From positions 1 to 64,000 of IMG/VR virus record IMGVR_UViG_3300017913_001553: DNA of 64,000 nt. One strand, given 5' to 3'. This document shows, one piece after another, positions 58,719 through 63,958 of the stretch. Source of the DNA: a virus (taxonomy: Duplodnaviria; Caudoviricetes). How positions within the stretch are numbered: the stretch's first letter is position 1; each line of letters opens with the position of its first letter. The position numbers were made by a program, and so were the translations under genes. The notes under the pieces are model-generated. The model saw nothing but the letters and a program-made list of their open reading frames with translations. It did not search any database and was not told the origin of the DNA.

Positions 58719-58969
58719 TTACAATTTATGGAAAACCAGCATGTCCTAGTTGCACAAAAGCAAAGCAACTATGTGAGATGCGTGGATACGATTATGAATA
58801 CCAAGAGTTAGGTAAAGATTTTGAACGTGAGTTTATTTTGGAAACATTTCCAGGTGCACGTACATTCCCACAAATCGTCATTAATGGTGAAAAGGTTGGT
58901 GGATTTGAAGGTATGACAAAATATATTGAAGACACAAATTATAATGGAACAGGGCACACGATCTCATGA
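58715..58969 (+). CDS. Glutaredoxin
   Basis: IYGKPACPSC (CxxC), TFPQI, GG. Confidence 0.92.
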   Translation: MITIYGKPACPSCTKAKQLCEMRGYDYEYQELGKDFEREFILETFPGARTFPQIVINGEKVGGFEGMTKYIEDTNYNGTGHTIS

Positions 58970-59256
58970 TTATTGAAAAACCATATGATGTTGGTGACGT
59001 ATTGAGCATCAAATTGTCAAGCGGTGAAGAAATGGTTTGCCGTTTAGAAAAAAAAGGTGAGAAAACGCTAACAGTTAAGAAACCTATGATGCTTGTTGCC
59101 GGACCAGATGGAGCAGGATTGGCACCATTTATGTTCACAGTTGATCAAAACGCAAGTTTTAAAATTCAACTAAATAATGTTATCGTGGTAGTGAAAACCG
59201 CAAAAGATGCGGCAGACATGTACACCCAAGCAACAACAGGAATTGTAACAGTATAA
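58966..59256 (+). CDS. Small beta-barrel (Sm-like) protein, tentative
   Basis: IKLSSGEEMVCRL...TVKKPMML...LAPFM. Confidence 0.45.
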   Translation: MIIEKPYDVGDVLSIKLSSGEEMVCRLEKKGEKTLTVKKPMMLVAGPDGAGLAPFMFTVDQNASFKIQLNNVIVVVKTAKDAADMYTQATTGIVTV

Positions 59257-59558
59257 TGCCAGCAGTAAGTCGCAAATCAGACAGTTTAAGTACAGGTCAC
59301 GGTTGTGATGGATCAACTATTCTTGCGACACCTGCACAGGGTACTGTTTATGCTAATGGCAGATTGGTTGCCAGAATTACTGATAAAACAATTGTACACG
59401 CTATTCCAAGTGGTCCAGCGTGTGTACCACACACCGAACAAGTACGTGCGGGTAGTGGAACAGTATATACCGAAGGACTAAAAACAGCACGTATTGGCGA
59501 TGCCGCAGATGGTGGTAATATGACGAGTGGTTCGCCAAATGTTTATGCGGGCGGTTAA
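59256..59558 (+). CDS. PAAR-repeat spike tip protein
   Basis: MPAVSRKSD..GH, VYANG..AR..D...H, GSGTVY.EG..ARIGD, GSPNVYAG. Confidence 0.88.
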   Translation: MPAVSRKSDSLSTGHGCDGSTILATPAQGTVYANGRLVARITDKTIVHAIPSGPACVPHTEQVRAGSGTVYTEGLKTARIGDAADGGNMTSGSPNVYAGG

Positions 59559-59622: not shown

Positions 59623-59698
59623 GCTCCTATAGCTCAGTTGGTAGAGCAACTGATTTGTAATCAGTAGGTCCGCGGTTCGAGTCCGTGTGGGAGCACCA
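59623..59698 (+). tRNA. tRNA-Thr(UGU) with encoded CCA
   Basis: Acceptor GCTCCTA/TGGGAGC, D arm GCTC-AGTTGGTA-GAGC, anticodon arm ACTGA-TTTGTAA-TCAGT, GGTTCGAGT T loop. Confidence 0.97.
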
Positions 59699-59702
59699 TT
59701 AT

Positions 59703-59787
59703 GCGGTTGTGGTGGAATTGGTAGACACGCTAGATTTAGGTTCTAGTGCTTCACGGCGTGAGAGTTCGAGTCTCTCCAACCGCACCA
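59703..59787 (+). tRNA. tRNA-Leu(UAG), long variable arm, encoded CCA
   Basis: GCGGTTG/CAACCGC acceptor, GGAATTGGTAGACAC D arm, CTAGA-TTTAGGT-TCTAG anticodon arm. Confidence 0.97.
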
Positions 59788-59856
59788 AATTATAAAAAAT
59801 ATTATATAGTACATTTTAATTAGTGGACGTTACGATTAGGAAATTTTAATAATTGC

Positions 59857-59894
59857 GTAGGTTGCAAGACCCTATCATTTGGTAAAAAACTTGC
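59857..59894 (+). ncRNA. H-type pseudoknot resembling a preQ1-I riboswitch aptamer
   Basis: P1 GTAGG/CCTAT, loop TTGCAAGAC, 3' tail TAAAAAACTTGC. GCAAG (59864-68) pairs with CTTGC (59890-94). Confidence 0.5.
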
Positions 59895-59897
59895 TTT

Positions 59898-59973
59898 GGG
59901 GAATTAGCTCAGTTGGGAGAGCGTCTGATTTGCATTCAGAAGGTCATCGGTTCGATCCCGGTATTCTCCACCA
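59898..59973 (+). tRNA. tRNA-Ala(UGC) with encoded CCA
   Basis: GGGGAAT/ATTCTCC acceptor with the G3:U70 Ala determinant; TCTGA-TTTGCAT-TCAGA anticodon arm. Confidence 0.97.
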
Positions 59974-59992: not shown

Positions 59993-60934
59993 ATGAATTA
60001 TTTTGAACTACAACCAGAGGAAAACACTTTTCTCAATATCGTTGTAGATTTGACACACAAGTGCAATATGGAATGTGCTAACTGCTATATTCCAAATAGA
60101 GATATCCCTGATCTAGATAAAGATCGTTTAGAGGATTTCTTGACACGACTTCCGTTTAGAACATATATTAGATTGATTGGTGCTGAACCAACCATGCGTG
60201 ATGATTTGCCAGAAATTATTGCCATGGTTAAGCGGTTAGGGCATCGTCCTAGTCTAACAACAAACGGACTTAAATTGGCACATATGCCGTATACGCAGAG
60301 TCTTAAAGATGTTGGATTGCGTCTAATGCTTCACAGTATGAATGGGGCAGACGATGATGAAGCATATAAAGTATTAGATATGGGTAAATGGGCAGAAGTA
60401 AAAACACGTGCTCTGGATAATATCTTGGCATGTCGTCTACCTATCAATACAGGGACAATTATCGCACGTGATGTAAATGAGCACTGTGTTCGTCGTCAGG
60501 TAGAAGTATTCGAAAAGTATTGTCTAAAGAATGATATCAACCTAGATACAACAGCACCTTACAATAGAATTACGCCAGTGTTGCGTATGAAAAGTGTCGG
60601 CAGTCTTGGTCGTAATATGGGGAGTGATTTGGCATTGGGTATTTCTGAATTGGCAGAAATCGCATCAGAAGAATTTAGCATTCCAATTGATGAAATTATC
60701 GCAAGTAAAGTTAGCGCAGGTGTTGTAAAAGCAGGCAACTATGGCGAAGCATTAACTAGTTTAATGTTTCCAGTTCATACAGCAGCAGGTAAACTTTTTA
60801 TCCGTTTAATTGATTGGAGTGTAAACGACGAGGGTGTTATTGATCATGATAACCCTAATCGTGGTAGATTAACACAAGACTTTAAAGTAGCACCATTTTT
60901 TGAACACGTTAAGAGGAATGAGTTTGGGTATTGA
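59993..60934 (+). CDS. MoaA-like radical SAM enzyme lacking auxiliary-cluster cysteines
   Basis: DLTHKCNMECANCY, IRLIGAEP, LTTNG; C-terminal DNPNRGRLTQD where MoaA has CxxCxRxRLxxD. Confidence 0.8.
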   Translation: MNYFELQPEENTFLNIVVDLTHKCNMECANCYIPNRDIPDLDKDRLEDFLTRLPFRTYIRLIGAEPTMRDDLPEIIAMVKRLGHRPSLTTNGLKLAHMPYTQSLKDVGLRLMLHSMNGADDDEAYKVLDMGKWAEVKTRALDNILACRLPINTGTIIARDVNEHCVRRQVEVFEKYCLKNDINLDTTAPYNRITPVLRMKSVGSLGRNMGSDLALGISELAEIASEEFSIPIDEIIASKVSAGVVKAGNYGEALTSLMFPVHTAAGKLFIRLIDWSVNDEGVIDHDNPNRGRLTQDFKVAPFFEHVKRNEFGY

Positions 60935-61523
60935 GGTTTATACAGCAACACACAAGGATGCTGATTTTAAAGATTATTGTGCGGCAATAGATAGGTTCCA
61001 TTTACATTTAGAGAAACATGGAACTAATGATAAACTTATTGAAAATTATCGTCCAAAAAGATTACAGTCACGTGATAGTATTGGAATCACTGTTTACTTG
61101 GATGATGGAGCATTATTGGGATTTAGCACAGTAATCACACGTGATATTTTTGGCAATGGGACACGTGTATTAAATCGCTTTGTAAAATCTCCAGTGTATA
61201 GATTTGAAAATGAACGCCGTAGAGTTAGTCAAGAAACAAAAGATATGATACAGCAACAATTAACGATTAGTCGTGAATTAGGGTTTGACTATTCGTTTAT
61301 GAGCCGTTATACTACTACAAATACAAGTAATTTTGACCATTATGGAAAACAGTTAACATTTGCTGAGTGGAAGAACGAACCGGGAAGATACTGCGTAACT
61401 GAAAACTTTCATCATAAAACAAGTTACCAGCATCTTATCTGGACTAGTTTTAATGATAATGTAAAAGAATTACCTATGTATTGGATAAGTGATGGAGAGT
61501 TCAATGAACTTGAAGAATTGTAA
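60918..61523 (+). CDS. GNAT-fold protein (putative acyl/aminoacyl transferase)
   Basis: ITVYLDDGALLGFS hairpin, VLNRFVKSPVYR motif-A-like strand, MIQQQLTISRELGFDYSFM helix-strand. Confidence 0.5.
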   Translation: MSLGIEVYTATHKDADFKDYCAAIDRFHLHLEKHGTNDKLIENYRPKRLQSRDSIGITVYLDDGALLGFSTVITRDIFGNGTRVLNRFVKSPVYRFENERRRVSQETKDMIQQQLTISRELGFDYSFMSRYTTTNTSNFDHYGKQLTFAEWKNEPGRYCVTENFHHKTSYQHLIWTSFNDNVKELPMYWISDGEFNELEEL

Positions 61524-62349
61524 GTTTGGATATATGATTGAAGATTTAGACTTCAATGACTATGATCCAAAAGAGATATTAAATTTAGTCGGTGATGGAC
61601 GTTTCGTTGTTATTAGAAACAATGAAAGGGTATTGCCATCGCAAATGGTAAAGTTATATAAAGAATTAGGTACAGTAGTATCCCAAAATGAAAAAGTAGA
61701 AAGTGCAGGAGTAGATGGGTTCCGTGAGTTGGTTAAGGTTCGTAGTAATGGTATGTTTACTGGTAACGATGATGGTGAGCTTGAATATCATTGCGCAGGG
61801 ATGAGTCGCACAGGTGGCGAGGATATCGTTGCAATGTATATGTATGACAAAGGAATAAGTGGTGGTATAACATATTATACAGATTCACAAACGGCATTTG
61901 ACGATTTGAGTGATGATGTAAAAGATTTGTGTAGAAAAGTAAATAGCAAAATATTAACATACAGCAAGAAAACAAAACTTGAAGGTAGTTACTACAAAAA
62001 GATTTTTAATGATGAACAGACCATGATGGAATTTCGTGATCCTGATGGTGAAAAAGTTTTTTTCAAGCAAACCCCACGAAAACAATTAGTGATTGAACAT
62101 CCAATTAATGGAAAAGAGGGATTATATTTCCCATGGAGTGTGATTAGAGGATTTACTGGGTTGGACCCACAGGAACAAAAAGATTTATACAGTCATTTAA
62201 AACAGCATACACTAAAAGAAAAATATGTGTATGCTCATGAATGGCAAAATAACGATATTATATTGAGTGATCAGCATCATAGTTTGCATAGACGTGATGC
62301 CTATGAAGGTGATCGTGAACTTTGGAGAGCAGGAATATGGTTGAATTAG
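61504..62349 (+). CDS. TauD/TfdA-family Fe(II)/2OG enzyme with H-X-A metal site (putative halogenase)
   Basis: YHCAG in place of WHxD, GGITYYTD, HPING, YAHEWQNNDIILSDQHHSLHRR...DRELWR. Confidence 0.75.
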   Translation: MNLKNCKFGYMIEDLDFNDYDPKEILNLVGDGRFVVIRNNERVLPSQMVKLYKELGTVVSQNEKVESAGVDGFRELVKVRSNGMFTGNDDGELEYHCAGMSRTGGEDIVAMYMYDKGISGGITYYTDSQTAFDDLSDDVKDLCRKVNSKILTYSKKTKLEGSYYKKIFNDEQTMMEFRDPDGEKVFFKQTPRKQLVIEHPINGKEGLYFPWSVIRGFTGLDPQEQKDLYSHLKQHTLKEKYVYAHEWQNNDIILSDQHHSLHRRDAYEGDRELWRAGIWLN

Positions 62350-63035
62350 AATACGGTGAAATTGATAATATCAATATTCGTGAACAATTATTAGAGCATG
62401 GATTATTAGTAATCCGCAATGCTGATATCTCTATGGATGAATTTAAAGAACGTGTGACATCTATGGGTAAACCACTGGTTACAACAAAGCATGTGTTGGA
62501 TGATGATCGTGTTGTTCAAGAATTAAGTGAAAATGGTTTGTTTAGTAACAATGATGTGGATTGGCACAATGATTGGAGTTACGGTAGAGGTAATTATTTT
62601 GGAACTGCCTTGCGAAATGTAGAAGGTGGTGAACTAAGTGAAACACATTTTTGTGATATGACAAAAATTCCACAAAGTATTATGCGTATGTACGAGGGCA
62701 AGGTAGGAAAATATTATCCACCGCAATCATTACATGATGTCTGCTTTACTGAAAAACAGTTACGAATTTTGGAAAAGCAAAAAGTAGAGCGTCCAATAGT
62801 TATGGATCATCCAATTACTGGAACGCCTCTTGTATTCTGTAGTCCTGGAACAATACAAAATGATGATATTGACTTGATGCCAATTATTCTTTATGCAGAT
62901 GTAGATGCGTATAATTACAAACACAAATGGAAACCAAATGATATTCTTATTTGGGACAATTATAGAATGATGCACAGACGTATGGCATTTGAAGGACACC
63001 GACTATTGTGGAGAATTCAATTCACATTAGAATAA
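62337..63035 (+). CDS. TauD/TfdA-family Fe(II)/2OG dioxygenase (canonical HxD)
   Basis: GLLVIRN, DWHND, ETHFCD, HPITG, HKWKPNDILIWDNYRMMHRR...RLLWR. Confidence 0.88.
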   Translation: MVELEYGEIDNINIREQLLEHGLLVIRNADISMDEFKERVTSMGKPLVTTKHVLDDDRVVQELSENGLFSNNDVDWHNDWSYGRGNYFGTALRNVEGGELSETHFCDMTKIPQSIMRMYEGKVGKYYPPQSLHDVCFTEKQLRILEKQKVERPIVMDHPITGTPLVFCSPGTIQNDDIDLMPIILYADVDAYNYKHKWKPNDILIWDNYRMMHRRMAFEGHRLLWRIQFTLE

Positions 63036-63427: not shown

Positions 63428-63958
63428 ATGTTTAAGAAATTCGCAATCACAGCAACTGCTATTATGATCACGTCAGCGGCAGCAGCACAATCAACTGCTT
63501 ATGCTACAATTACAAAAGTAGTCCCTAATTACACAAACGGTGGAACAACTCAACAAGCATATCAGAGTTGTGAAATTGTTAGTGTGCCAGTTACTCGCAC
63601 AGAAACTGTTCGTGAAGGCGGCAGTTCGGGTGAGGGAGCATTGGCAGGAATGATTATCGGTGGTATTCTTGGTAAAGGAGTATCTGGTAACGATAAAGGT
63701 GCGGCAGCAGGTGCTGTAATTGGTGGCATTATTGGTGCTGATAAAGGCGGTAATGGTCGTACAGTTGAGCGCAATGTGACACGATATGAAGATCGTGAAG
63801 TGTGTACGACAAAATATCGTACAGTCCATGGATCACGCCAGATCAAAAATTATAAGATTACCTATGAATGGGCTGGTGTAACTGGAACAAGTTATACTTA
63901 TAATTCATATAATGTAGGTGATCAGATTCCGGTAACTGTTTCTATTAACGCAAAGTAA
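63428..63958 (+). CDS. Exported glycine-zipper (2TM) protein
   Basis: Signal peptide MFKKFAITATAIMITSAAAA; GALAGMIIGGILG...GAAAGAVIGGIIG zipper; YKITYEW..G beta domain. Confidence 0.8.
   Translation: MFKKFAITATAIMITSAAAAQSTAYATITKVVPNYTNGGTTQQAYQSCEIVSVPVTRTETVREGGSSGEGALAGMIIGGILGKGVSGNDKGAAAGAVIGGIIGADKGGNGRTVERNVTRYEDREVCTTKYRTVHGSRQIKNYKITYEWAGVTGTSYTYNSYNVGDQIPVTVSINAK

What the first reader, a model, noticed from the sequence alone, without database searches (positions are those of the whole stretch)
61504..62349. TauD-family enzyme with the halogenase-type His-X-Ala site
The paralogs align as GMFTGNDDGELEY-H-C-A-G versus GLFSNNDVDW-H-N-D-W. The carboxylate ligand Asp is therefore replaced by Ala (codons cat tgc gca, 61789-97), while the distal His (SLHRR) and the 2OG-binding Arg (RELWR) are kept. 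In Fe/2OG halogenases (SyrB2 HXA; WelO5, BesD and the nucleotide halogenase AdeV with Gly) this substitution opens a halide-binding site. I am not aware of a described phage halogenase. Alternatives are Cys ligation or a non-catalytic partner subunit.
Basis: partly seen in the sequence, partly recalled or inferred. Interest (0 to 1): 0.85.

Follow-up and report, generated by a model that had tools for sequence, protein, structure and literature searches.

The report
Phage TauD enzyme lacking its carboxylate ligand
A marine jumbo-phage gene encodes an iron/2-oxoglutarate enzyme of the TauD family whose usual metal-binding aspartate is replaced by a strictly conserved alanine; this is the signature of radical halogenases, but it also occurs in at least one ordinary hydroxylase, so chlorination is a good hypothesis and not yet a finding.

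Summary
ORF 61504-62349 is a TauD/TfdA-family protein (Pfam E 1.6e-24; AF2 pLDDT 89). It reads His96-Cys97-Ala98 where its downstream paralog and solved relatives read HxD. Both His ligands and the 2OG-binding Thr/Arg residues are kept.

- **The Ala is real and selected.** All 75 homolog clusters at 46-97% identity have HxA, with synonymous codon variation (GCA/GCT). The Cys is not conserved (mostly Ser).
- **The family is essentially viral.** There are 48 IMG/VR loci against two distant hits in about 185,000 cellular species genomes.
- **It sits in a fixed cassette.** Every member at 47% identity or more lies in the order radical SAM, GNAT-fold protein, HxA TauD, canonical HxD TauD.

Three things temper the halogenase reading:
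- The closest outgroup is a large HxN clade in which D, N, A, H and G interchange.
- A sister cassette puts an HxN enzyme in the same slot.
- Human AspH naturally lacks the carboxylate yet only hydroxylates.

No known halogenase is a sequence relative or a listed fold match.

My odds are: halogenase about 1/3, non-halogenating open-site oxygenase about 1/2, inactive partner about 1/10.

Phage halogenases are already described, but they are flavin-dependent (VirX1); I found no viral Fe/2OG halogenase. The scan had already noted this stretch of the same genome in overlapping reads.

The parts
59623..59973 (+). tRNA-Thr(tgt), tRNA-Leu(tag) and tRNA-Ala(tgc) cluster ending 20 nt before the cassette (context only)
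   Evidence: ARAGORN
59993..60934 (+). Radical SAM enzyme, 313 aa, with a single CxxxCxxC cluster; first gene of the cassette
   Evidence: Pfam PF04055 E 2.9e-11. Only generic relatives: TrsS, MoaA, Tes, PqqE, BlsE. It is 46-71% identical across the cassettes, the best-conserved member
60900..61523 (+). GNAT-fold protein, about 207 aa (start uncertain: TTG 60900 or a later ATG); second gene; overlaps both neighbours
   Evidence: No Pfam, NCBIfam or PHROG hit. AF2 pLDDT 73, pTM 0.77; all listed Foldseek PDB hits are GNAT N-acyltransferases, E about 2e-7, TM about 0.5. Cassette orthologs are 35-40% identical with invariant basic motifs
61504..62349 (+). TauD/TfdA-family Fe/2OG-type protein, 281 aa, with a His-X-Ala site (the finding)
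   Evidence: Pfam PF02668 E 1.6e-24, 87.7 bits against a cut-off of 27. AF2 pLDDT 89.3; Foldseek top hits are RdpA, AAD-1, TauD, AtsK and PlaO1
61789..61797 (+). Codons CAT TGC GCA = His96-Cys97-Ala98; Ala replaces the facial-triad carboxylate
61777..61779 (+). Glu92 (His-4), 96% conserved in the HxA group; candidate second-sphere or relocated carboxylate, or a binder of a substrate amine
   Evidence: association suggestive, median p 0.125
62278..62289 (+). His259-Ser260-Leu261-His262: the distal metal His262, plus His259 and Ser260 that are characteristic of the clade
62314..62328 (+). Arg271 to Arg275 (RELWR), the 2OG C5-carboxylate-binding region; both Arg invariant
   Evidence: assignment by alignment to TauD-family structures
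62337..63035 (+). Canonical TauD paralog, 232 aa, with HxD (His77, Asp79), His213, Thr103, Arg222 and Arg226; fourth gene; overlaps the HxA gene by 13 nt
   Evidence: Pfam E 1.3e-23. Site residues are invariant in cassette orthologs. It falls in the canonical WDN/HxD clade on the tree

Best explanation
Shown: the gene encodes a folded TauD/TfdA-type double-stranded beta-helix protein. It keeps the two iron-binding histidines (His96, His262) and the 2-oxoglutarate-binding Thr123, Arg271 and Arg275, but has a strictly conserved alanine where the third, carboxylate, iron ligand should be. It belongs to an almost purely viral clade. It is the third gene of a fixed four-gene phage cassette: radical SAM, GNAT-fold acyltransferase, HxA TauD, canonical HxD TauD. 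Inferred: it is an active Fe(II)/2OG enzyme with one protein-free coordination position on the iron. The single most likely specific mechanism (about one chance in three) is radical halogenation. In that mechanism chloride or bromide binds the open position, O2 and 2OG give a cis-halo-oxo-Fe(IV) species, that species abstracts a hydrogen from a small, probably amino-acid-like and N-acylated substrate made or prepared by the radical SAM and GNAT enzymes, and the halogen rebounds. The neighbouring HxD paralog would then hydroxylate the same scaffold or process it further. Taken together, the non-halogenating readings of the same open site are more likely than halogenation.
For: - **Family and fold:**
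- **Ala aligned to the Asp of the paralog, RdpA and CarC:**
- **HxA conservation:** it is present in all 75 clusters at 46-97% identity, and in 19 of 21 rows of a clade with 100% support reaching down to 34% identity. Elsewhere in the wider clade the same column is labile, so Ala itself is under selection here.
- **Synonymous variation at and around the Ala codon:**
- **Metal and 2OG residues are invariant:**
- **Not a decaying copy:** it is at least as conserved as the canonical partner in 16 of the 18 distinct cassette versions compared.
- **Sign of a new function:** the HxA clade sits on a long stem branch with many fixed changes around the site, namely a DG insertion, A-G-M, Met113, His259 and Ser260. 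This fits the literature finding that turning a hydroxylase into a halogenase needs many second-sphere changes (10.1101/2024.09.19.613983) and that a bare D-to-A change kills TauD and P4H (PMC2767507).
- **Setting:** marine metagenome sources, so halide is abundant.
Against: - No homology to any known halogenase lineage. None appears among PDB sequence hits at E up to 10 or among the listed Foldseek matches.
- The sister group is HxN, a state not known in halogenases. D and N interchange there with no visible co-changes.
- A related cassette uses an HxN TauD in the same slot.
- AspH has the same kind of 2-His site, holds a water there and does not halogenate.
- A conserved Glu92 near the site is enriched when the carboxylate is lost. 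It could hold a water or disfavour anion binding.
- No substrate, product, halide dependence or metal-site geometry is known.
Confidence: 0.33

Rival explanations
1. An AspH-like open-site oxygenase. The enzyme is active, but the vacant position is filled by a water that second-sphere residues hold in place (Glu92 at His-4, Gln257, His259 or Ser260). It therefore hydroxylates, desaturates or otherwise oxidises its substrate without taking up halide.
For: - AspH is a natural precedent: two His ligands, a water at the carboxylate site stabilised by Asp721, and no halogenation even with pseudohalides (PMC13168262).
- The whole DQ clade tolerates D, N, A, H, G and C at this column.
- HxN and HxD members of that clade are otherwise indistinguishable.
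- An HxN enzyme fills the same cassette slot in L055 and L056.
- An acidic residue at His-4 occurs in 80% of carboxylate-less rows against 34% of HxD rows.
Against: - Inside the HxA clade the Ala is strictly kept rather than drifting, as would be expected if the column were unimportant.
- The His-4 association is not significant after phylogenetic correction (median p 0.125).
- In TauD itself D101A abolishes hydroxylation (PMC2767507).
- This protein is not related to the AspH family (PF05118).
Confidence: 0.3
2. A substrate-completed or relocated triad. The third iron ligand comes from the substrate (a carboxylate, phosphate or thiolate group) or from a different protein residue (Glu92 or His259), so the chemistry is ordinary oxygenase chemistry gated by substrate binding.
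For: - Glu92 is 96% conserved and His259 98% conserved in the HxA group.
- The loop at residues 81-100, which carries Glu92 and the clade-specific DG insertion, is the only low-confidence and possibly mobile part of the model.
- The GNAT and radical SAM partners suggest an acylated, carboxylate-bearing small substrate.
Against: - His259 also occurs in 38% of the DQ-clade members that keep Asp, so it is not specific to carboxylate loss.
- A 3-His variant of P4H is inactive.
- No geometry is available.
Confidence: 0.17
3. A non-catalytic paralog. The HxA protein has lost iron chemistry and serves as a substrate-binding, regulatory or scaffolding subunit for the adjacent canonical HxD TauD.
For: - It lies next to, and is translationally overlapped with, a canonical paralog in the window. 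The four genes are linked in the same order in all 27 cassette loci.
- A carboxylate-less TauD is paired with a canonical TauD again in L055 and L056.
- D101A TauD is inactive and binds iron less well.
Against: - Both His ligands and all 2OG-binding residues are invariant across sequences down to 34% identity.
- It evolves no faster than the HxD partner.
- More distant HxA members (P0082, P0085, L040-L043, L046) and the HxN protein of Pelagibacter phage Mosig occur without a TauD partner.
- In at least L004 another gene separates the two TauDs.
Confidence: 0.1

Closest known systems
TfdA / RdpA (AAD-1) / TauD / AtsK group of Fe(II)/2OG dioxygenases (Pfam PF02668)
   Same: Closest by sequence (profile E 1e-26 to 1e-14) and by fold (Foldseek E about 1e-17, TM 0.70-0.76). 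Same positions for the two His ligands, the Thr and Arg that bind 2OG, and the overall double-stranded beta-helix.
   Different: The Asp ligand is replaced by Ala. The W-D-N motif before the distal His reads S-D-Q. There is a two-residue DG insertion before the HxA motif and an insert of about 40 residues at 148-189. The substrate is unknown.
Fe/2OG radical halogenases (SyrB2/CytC3 with HxA; WelO5, BesD/HalA and DAH with HxG; the nucleotide halogenase AdeV)
   Same: The carboxylate ligand is replaced by a small non-coordinating residue while the two His ligands and 2OG binding are retained, which is the defining active-site signature.
   Different: No detectable sequence relationship, and none among the listed structural matches, so any halogenase activity would have arisen independently inside the TauD/TfdA group. 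No carrier protein or NRPS/PKS genes lie nearby. Halide binding is untested.
Human aspartate/asparagine beta-hydroxylase AspH
   Same: A natural 2OG oxygenase with only two His ligands and nothing from the protein at the carboxylate position (PMC13168262). It shows that such a site can support hydroxylation.
   Different: A different family (PF05118). It acts on EGF-domain proteins. Its water ligand is held by Asp721, and no equivalent has been demonstrated here. Separate PF05118 genes do occur in the same phage islands.
Flavin-dependent phage halogenases (VirX1 of cyanophage Syn10; the annotated tryptophan halogenase AGH07741.1 of cyanophage S-SSM6a)
   Same: Halogenases, or predicted halogenases, encoded by marine phages. 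The S-SSM6a one lies in an island with carbamoyltransferases and sugar-nucleotide enzymes; carbamoyltransferase, HAD phosphatase and nucleotidyltransferase genes also flank this cassette in L001.
   Different: An unrelated enzyme class (flavin-dependent, about 495 aa) with an electrophilic rather than radical mechanism.

Membership tests
TauD/TfdA family (PF02668) | Matches the family profile above the curated threshold | tested here: met
   87.7 bits against a cut-off of 27, E 1.6e-24, covering profile positions 15-266 of 267
TauD/TfdA family (PF02668) | Double-stranded beta-helix fold of the TauD type | tested here: met
   AF2 pLDDT 89.3, pTM 0.89; Foldseek hits RdpA, TauD, AtsK and PlaO1 at E 5e-18 to 1e-15
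TauD/TfdA family (PF02668) | [quoted passage not shown] | tested here: not met
   His96 and His262 are present; Ala98 takes the Asp position
TauD/TfdA family (PF02668) | Residues binding the 2OG C5 carboxylate (Thr on the strand after HxD; Arg after the distal His) | tested here: met
   Thr123 is 96% conserved; Arg271 and Arg275 are at least 98% conserved in the group and invariant in alignment A1
TauD/TfdA family (PF02668) | Fe(II)- and 2OG-dependent turnover | not testable with these tools
   Needs purified protein
Fe/2OG radical halogenases | Carboxylate ligand replaced by Ala or Gly with both His ligands retained | tested here: met
   HxA in all 75 clusters at 46-97% identity and in 19 of 21 rows of the fully supported clade
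Fe/2OG radical halogenases | Descent from, or detectable similarity to, a characterised halogenase lineage (SyrB2, WelO5, BesD, AdeV, DAH) | tested here: not met
   No halogenase among 52 PDB sequence matches at E up to 10, and none among the listed Foldseek matches
Fe/2OG radical halogenases | Halide bound to iron and a halogenated product | not testable with these tools
   No coordinates and no biochemistry; the substrate is unknown
Fe/2OG radical halogenases | Sister hydroxylases differ by HxD against HxA/G, together with second-sphere changes | tested here: inconclusive
   The HxA clade has many fixed changes near the site, but its nearest outgroup is mainly HxN, not HxD
AspH-type 2-His hydroxylases | Member of the Asp/Arg hydroxylase family (PF05118) | tested here: not met
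   PF02668 is the only Pfam match
AspH-type 2-His hydroxylases | Water at the vacant site held by a second-sphere carboxylate | tested here: inconclusive
   Glu92 at His-4 is conserved and enriched in carboxylate-less members (80% against 34%), but the phylogenetically corrected test gives median p 0.125 and no geometry is available

The most novel reading that the evidence does not exclude
This is the first virus-encoded Fe(II)/2OG radical halogenase and the first to arise inside the TauD/TfdA group. It works in a mobile four-gene cassette (radical SAM, GNAT, halogenase, hydroxylase) with which marine jumbo phages make a chlorinated or brominated small molecule during infection. The abundant HxN relatives, including one in the cultured Pelagibacter phage Mosig, would then be a second, undescribed type of carboxylate-less iron site.
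Probability: 0.3. Interest if true: 0.85.

Novelty: new variant of a known kind. Interest (0 to 1): 0.6.

Why it matters
- **If it halogenates.** It would add a new, independently evolved scaffold to the small set of enzymes that chlorinate unactivated C-H bonds, and these are sought after as biocatalysts. It would also show that ocean phages make organohalogens with radical chemistry.
- **If it does not.** It would join AspH as a natural example of how a 2OG oxygenase works without its carboxylate ligand. The large HxN/HxA clade gives many natural D/N/A variants with which to study what that ligand is for.
- **In either case.** These genes are routinely labelled 'taurine dioxygenase' and counted as viral sulfur-metabolism genes; for example, tauD is reported as the most abundant viral sulfur gene in PMC8940887. 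For this clade that label is very probably wrong. The cassette context points to secondary-metabolite biosynthesis, not taurine catabolism.

Tried and rejected
- **Heterocomplex prediction** of the HxA and HxD proteins with Fe riding along. It returned no verdict (score 0.00), so it is not evidence either way.
- **Read-level confirmation and expression** (look-up of sequencing runs).
- **Metal-site distances.** Model coordinates are not exposed to the script box, so no distances could be measured.
- **Atlas search with the GNAT-like protein.** It failed because the sequence is not stored. The atlas search with HxA homolog P0009 gave only generic viral TauD clusters.
- **Word-based homolog search for the GNAT-like protein.** It found only one near-identical cluster, so orthologs were taken from the cassettes instead.
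- **Idea that the 'amino acid halogenase' AGH07741.1 predicted in S-SSM6a is a homolog.** Rejected: it is a 495-aa protein annotated as tryptophan halogenase.
- **Idea that radical SAM plus GNAT is a split Elp3.** Rejected: there is no Elp3 signal, and the closest relatives are Tes, PqqE, MoaA and BlsE.
- **Cys97 as a metal ligand.** Rejected: it is Ser or Asn in most homologs.
- **Sequencing error at the Ala codon.** Rejected.
- **Promoter and terminator scan.** Matches were at chance level.
- **The 203-aa protein after the radical SAM in L055 as a GNAT ortholog.** No support from hhalign (probability 0.8%).
- **Contexts of HxN proteins P0103 and P0105.** The contigs were too short to be informative.
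- **DNA search of phage records with the cassette.** Only the tRNA-Ala matched.
Full report
**1.

- The window holds an ORF at 61504-62349 (+). It overlaps the upstream gene by 20 nt and the downstream gene by 13 nt.
- Its product (281 aa from ATG 61504, the start that homologs support) matches Pfam TauD (PF02668) at E 1.6e-24, 87.7 bits against a cut-off of 27.
- The downstream ORF (62337-63035, 232 aa) matches the same family at E 1.3e-23.
- The two are 24% identical (E 4e-14). The alignment places His96-Cys97-Ala98 (codons CAT TGC GCA, 61789-61797) opposite His-Asn-Asp of the paralog.
- Independent alignments to solved relatives RdpA and CarC put their HxD on the same residues.
- The distal His262, Arg271, Arg275 and Thr123 are present.

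**2. The alanine is real and under selection**

- A search of 5.8 billion proteins returned 75 clusters at 46-97% identity, mostly from marine metagenomes. An exhaustive HMMER scan of 1.84 billion representatives added more distant relatives.
- All 75 close clusters read H-[S/C/N]-A.
- His96, His262, Arg264, Arg271 and Arg275 are invariant in alignment A1, and Thr123 is nearly so.
- The middle residue is Ser in most homologs, so Cys97 is not a conserved ligand.
- In ten loci from independent assemblies the Ala codon is GCT, against GCA in the window. The flanking His (CAT/CAC), Ser (AGT/AGC/TCT) and Gly (GGG/GGT/GGA) codons vary synonymously. This is what purifying selection looks like, and it rules out a sequencing error.

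**3. Fold and nearest known relatives**

- AlphaFold2 on the family alignment gave pLDDT 89.3 and pTM 0.89. The only low-confidence stretch is the loop at residues 81-100, just before the HxA motif.
- Foldseek against the PDB returned RdpA/AAD-1, TauD, AtsK, PlaO1 and Rv0097 (E about 1e-17 to 1e-15, TM 0.70-0.76). No halogenase is among the listed matches.
- A profile of the family searched against all PDB sequences found TfdA (1e-26), RdpA, TauD, AtsK, CarC and ScoE. It found no SyrB2, CytC3, WelO5, BesD/Hal or AdeV, even at E up to 10.
- Any halogenase activity would therefore have arisen independently inside the TauD/TfdA group.

**4. An unexpected evolutionary setting**

Tabulating the ligand column over the 206 relatives long enough to align gave these counts:

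| State | Count |
|---|---|
| HxA | 86 |
| HxN | 60 |
| HxD | 44 |
| HxE | 4 |
| HxG | 2 |
| HxH | 2 |
| HxC | 1 |
| column gapped | 7 |

- The alignment is unambiguous: ELxWH[S/C]AG, ELxWH[C/S/T]NG and WHxD.
- On a maximum-likelihood tree of 133 rows a split with 99% support separates two clades.
  - One is a canonical clade of 26 rows, all HxD/E with the W-D-N....H motif. The window's own downstream paralog falls here.
  - The other is a 'DQ' clade of 107 rows, with D-Q in place of D-N and no Trp. Its ligand column is highly labile: N 60, A 22, D 20, plus H, G, C and E. At least 25 changes are needed overall.
- The query lies in a clade of 21 rows with 100% support: 19 HxA, one HxE and one HxC.
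- HxN and HxD members of the DQ clade have nearly identical residue profiles elsewhere. The HxA clade, by contrast, has many fixed differences: a DG insertion at 90-91, A-G-M, Met113, Gly121, Asp127, His259, Ser260, and an insert at about 148-189.
- The only cultured-phage relative found, the 'putative taurine catabolism dioxygenase' of Pelagibacter phage Mosig, is an HxN/DQ protein.

**5. A conserved, mobile, viral cassette**

- The window is a 72,026-bp IMG/VR record estimated at 20% complete, which implies a jumbo phage. Its NrdA is closest to those of large myoviruses such as DLP6, XaC1 and PBECO4.
- A scan of one genome for each of about 185,000 bacterial and archaeal species found only two relatives, both 26% identical. 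One lies on a single 349.5-kb contig labelled 'MAG: bacterium'.
- IMG/VR gave 48 loci. The atlas clusters nearest to a homolog are 89-98% viral.
- A tblastn census shows that every HxA protein at 47% identity or more (27 loci, several of them duplicate copies of the same contig region) has the four genes in the same order: radical SAM, small protein, HxA TauD, HxD TauD. Every HxA protein at 46% or less stands alone.
- The flanking genes differ between loci, so the cassette moves as a unit:
  - nrdAB and tRNAs in the window;
  - carbamoyltransferase, HAD phosphatase and nucleotidyltransferase in L001;
  - DnaB and ThyX in L005 and L016.
- The small protein has no family match, but it folds as a GNAT acyltransferase (pLDDT 73; all listed Foldseek hits are GNATs at E about 2e-7, with modest TM of about 0.5).
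- The radical SAM has a single CxxxCxxC cluster and only generic relatives: TrsS, MoaA, Tes, PqqE and BlsE.
- The HxD partner keeps a complete canonical site.
- Across the 18 distinct cassette versions compared, the HxA protein is as conserved as or more conserved than its HxD partner in 16 (for example 57/45, 62/54 and 55/42 % identity to the window proteins).
- L055 and L056 carry a sister arrangement: an HxN/DQ TauD, then an ortholog of the HxD TauD (47-50%), then an ortholog of the radical SAM (47-48%), then an ATP-grasp enzyme.

**6. What it most likely does**

- The invariant metal and 2OG residues, the strict Ala and the slow evolutionary rate argue for an active enzyme with one protein-free coordination position on the iron.
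- Which ligand fills that position cannot be decided here.
- For halogenation:
  - the signature itself (literature);
  - strict retention of Ala in a clade whose relatives vary freely at this column;
  - the long stem branch with many changes near the site. This fits reports that a bare D-to-A change inactivates TauD and P4H (PMC2767507) and that converting a hydroxylase needs many second-sphere changes.
- Against halogenation:
  - the HxN sister group, and an HxN enzyme in the equivalent cassette slot;
  - the AspH precedent: a natural 2-His site with a tightly held water and no halogenation (PMC13168262);
  - the published caution that HxA/G motif searches give false positives (PMC13519999);
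  - the conserved Glu92 at His-4. An acidic residue there occurs in 69 of 86 carboxylate-less rows against 16 of 47 HxD/E rows. In phylogenetically independent pairs the association runs in the compensating direction about 5 to 0.6, but the median p is 0.125.
- From my memory of the TauD structure, the His-4 position (Asn95) contacts the substrate amine. Glu92 may therefore simply bind a cationic substrate. This is not tested.
- My odds:

| Reading | Probability |
|---|---|
| Halogenase | about 0.33 |
| AspH-like water-bearing oxygenase | about 0.30 |
| Substrate-completed or relocated triad | about 0.17 |
| Inactive partner subunit | about 0.10 |
| Something else | remainder |

- The substrate is unknown. 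A GNAT plus two TauD-type enzymes suggests an N-acylated, amino-acid-like small molecule. This is inference only.

**7. Comparison with the literature**

- Phage halogenases are not new. VirX1 is a characterised flavin-dependent cyanophage halogenase (cited in PMC13519999).
- Iyer et al. 2021 (PMC7824862) predicted a halogenated metabolite cluster in cyanophage S-SSM6a. The halogenase they name, AGH07741.1, is a 495-aa protein annotated as tryptophan halogenase, so it belongs to a different enzyme class.
- Three full-text searches found no viral Fe/2OG halogenase.

**8. Verdict**

- This is a real, conserved and almost exclusively viral variant of the TauD family with a halogenase-type site, embedded in a conserved biosynthetic cassette.
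- The halogenase reading is attractive and directly testable, but it is a minority probability on present evidence.
- The wider and equally interesting result is that a large clade of marine-phage 'taurine dioxygenases' lacks the canonical carboxylate ligand altogether.

Noticed in passing
L021:3755-4564 (Pelagibacter phage Mosig, MT647606.1) and about 60 protein clusters such as P0094, P0103, P0105 and P0121: A large clade of TauD-family proteins reads His-X-Asn (ELxWH[C/S/T]NG) with D-Q in place of the usual W-D-N before the distal His. D and N interchange repeatedly on the tree. The cultured Pelagibacter phage Mosig carries one, annotated as a taurine dioxygenase, in an island with two Asp/Arg hydroxylases, a desaturase, an aminotransferase, a methylase and an acetyltransferase. 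I know of no characterised HxN 2OG enzyme.
   Followed up: partly
L055:4752-9729 and L056:4803-10576: A sister cassette: TauD(HxN, DQ type), an ortholog of the window's HxD TauD (47-50%), one or two small genes, an ortholog of the radical SAM (47-48%), an unrelated 203-aa protein, and an ATP-grasp enzyme (PF02655, E 2.4e-9).
   Followed up: partly
L022 (JAUHVL010000001.1, contig of 349,524 bp): A single 349.5-kb contig deposited as 'MAG: bacterium' carries distant TauD relatives of this clade (26% identity, two adjacent copies). Its size and content suggest a mis-binned jumbo phage genome.
   Followed up: no
L005:9521-10090; L006:12591-13040; L018:1-277: In some phages the cassette is followed by a family-2 sulfotransferase-like gene (PF03567, 25.1 bits against a cut-off of 22), and an APS-kinase-like gene lies nearby. 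This hints that the product may be sulfated in those phages.
   Followed up: partly
L004:8888-9649: In L004 a 253-aa gene (weak DUF6473 match, below the cut-off) sits between the HxA and HxD genes. Gaps of 545-820 nt between the two TauD matches in L024, L025 and L034 may hold a similar insert. Translational coupling of the two TauDs is therefore not universal.
   Followed up: partly
L040:4118-5840: Two tandem stand-alone HxA-type TauD copies (45% and 43% identical to the query) with no radical SAM, GNAT or HxD genes nearby.
   Followed up: no
window 59256-59558 and 58966-59256: A 100-aa PAAR-motif protein (PF05488, E 4.9e-7; T4 gp5.4-like spike tip) directly follows an unannotated 96-aa ORF and the nrdA-nrdB-glutaredoxin genes.
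   Followed up: no
window 63428-63958: A 176-aa protein with an N-terminal signal-like segment and a glycine-zipper region (weak matches to Gly-zipper_Omp and the Rickettsia 17-kDa antigen family, both below their cut-offs). It may be a phage-encoded membrane or lipoprotein, just downstream of the cassette.
   Followed up: no
window 59623-59973: Three tRNA genes (Thr-tgt, Leu-tag, Ala-tgc) lie immediately upstream of the cassette. The tRNA-Ala is about 92% identical to tRNA-Ala genes of large Rhizobium phages.
   Followed up: no
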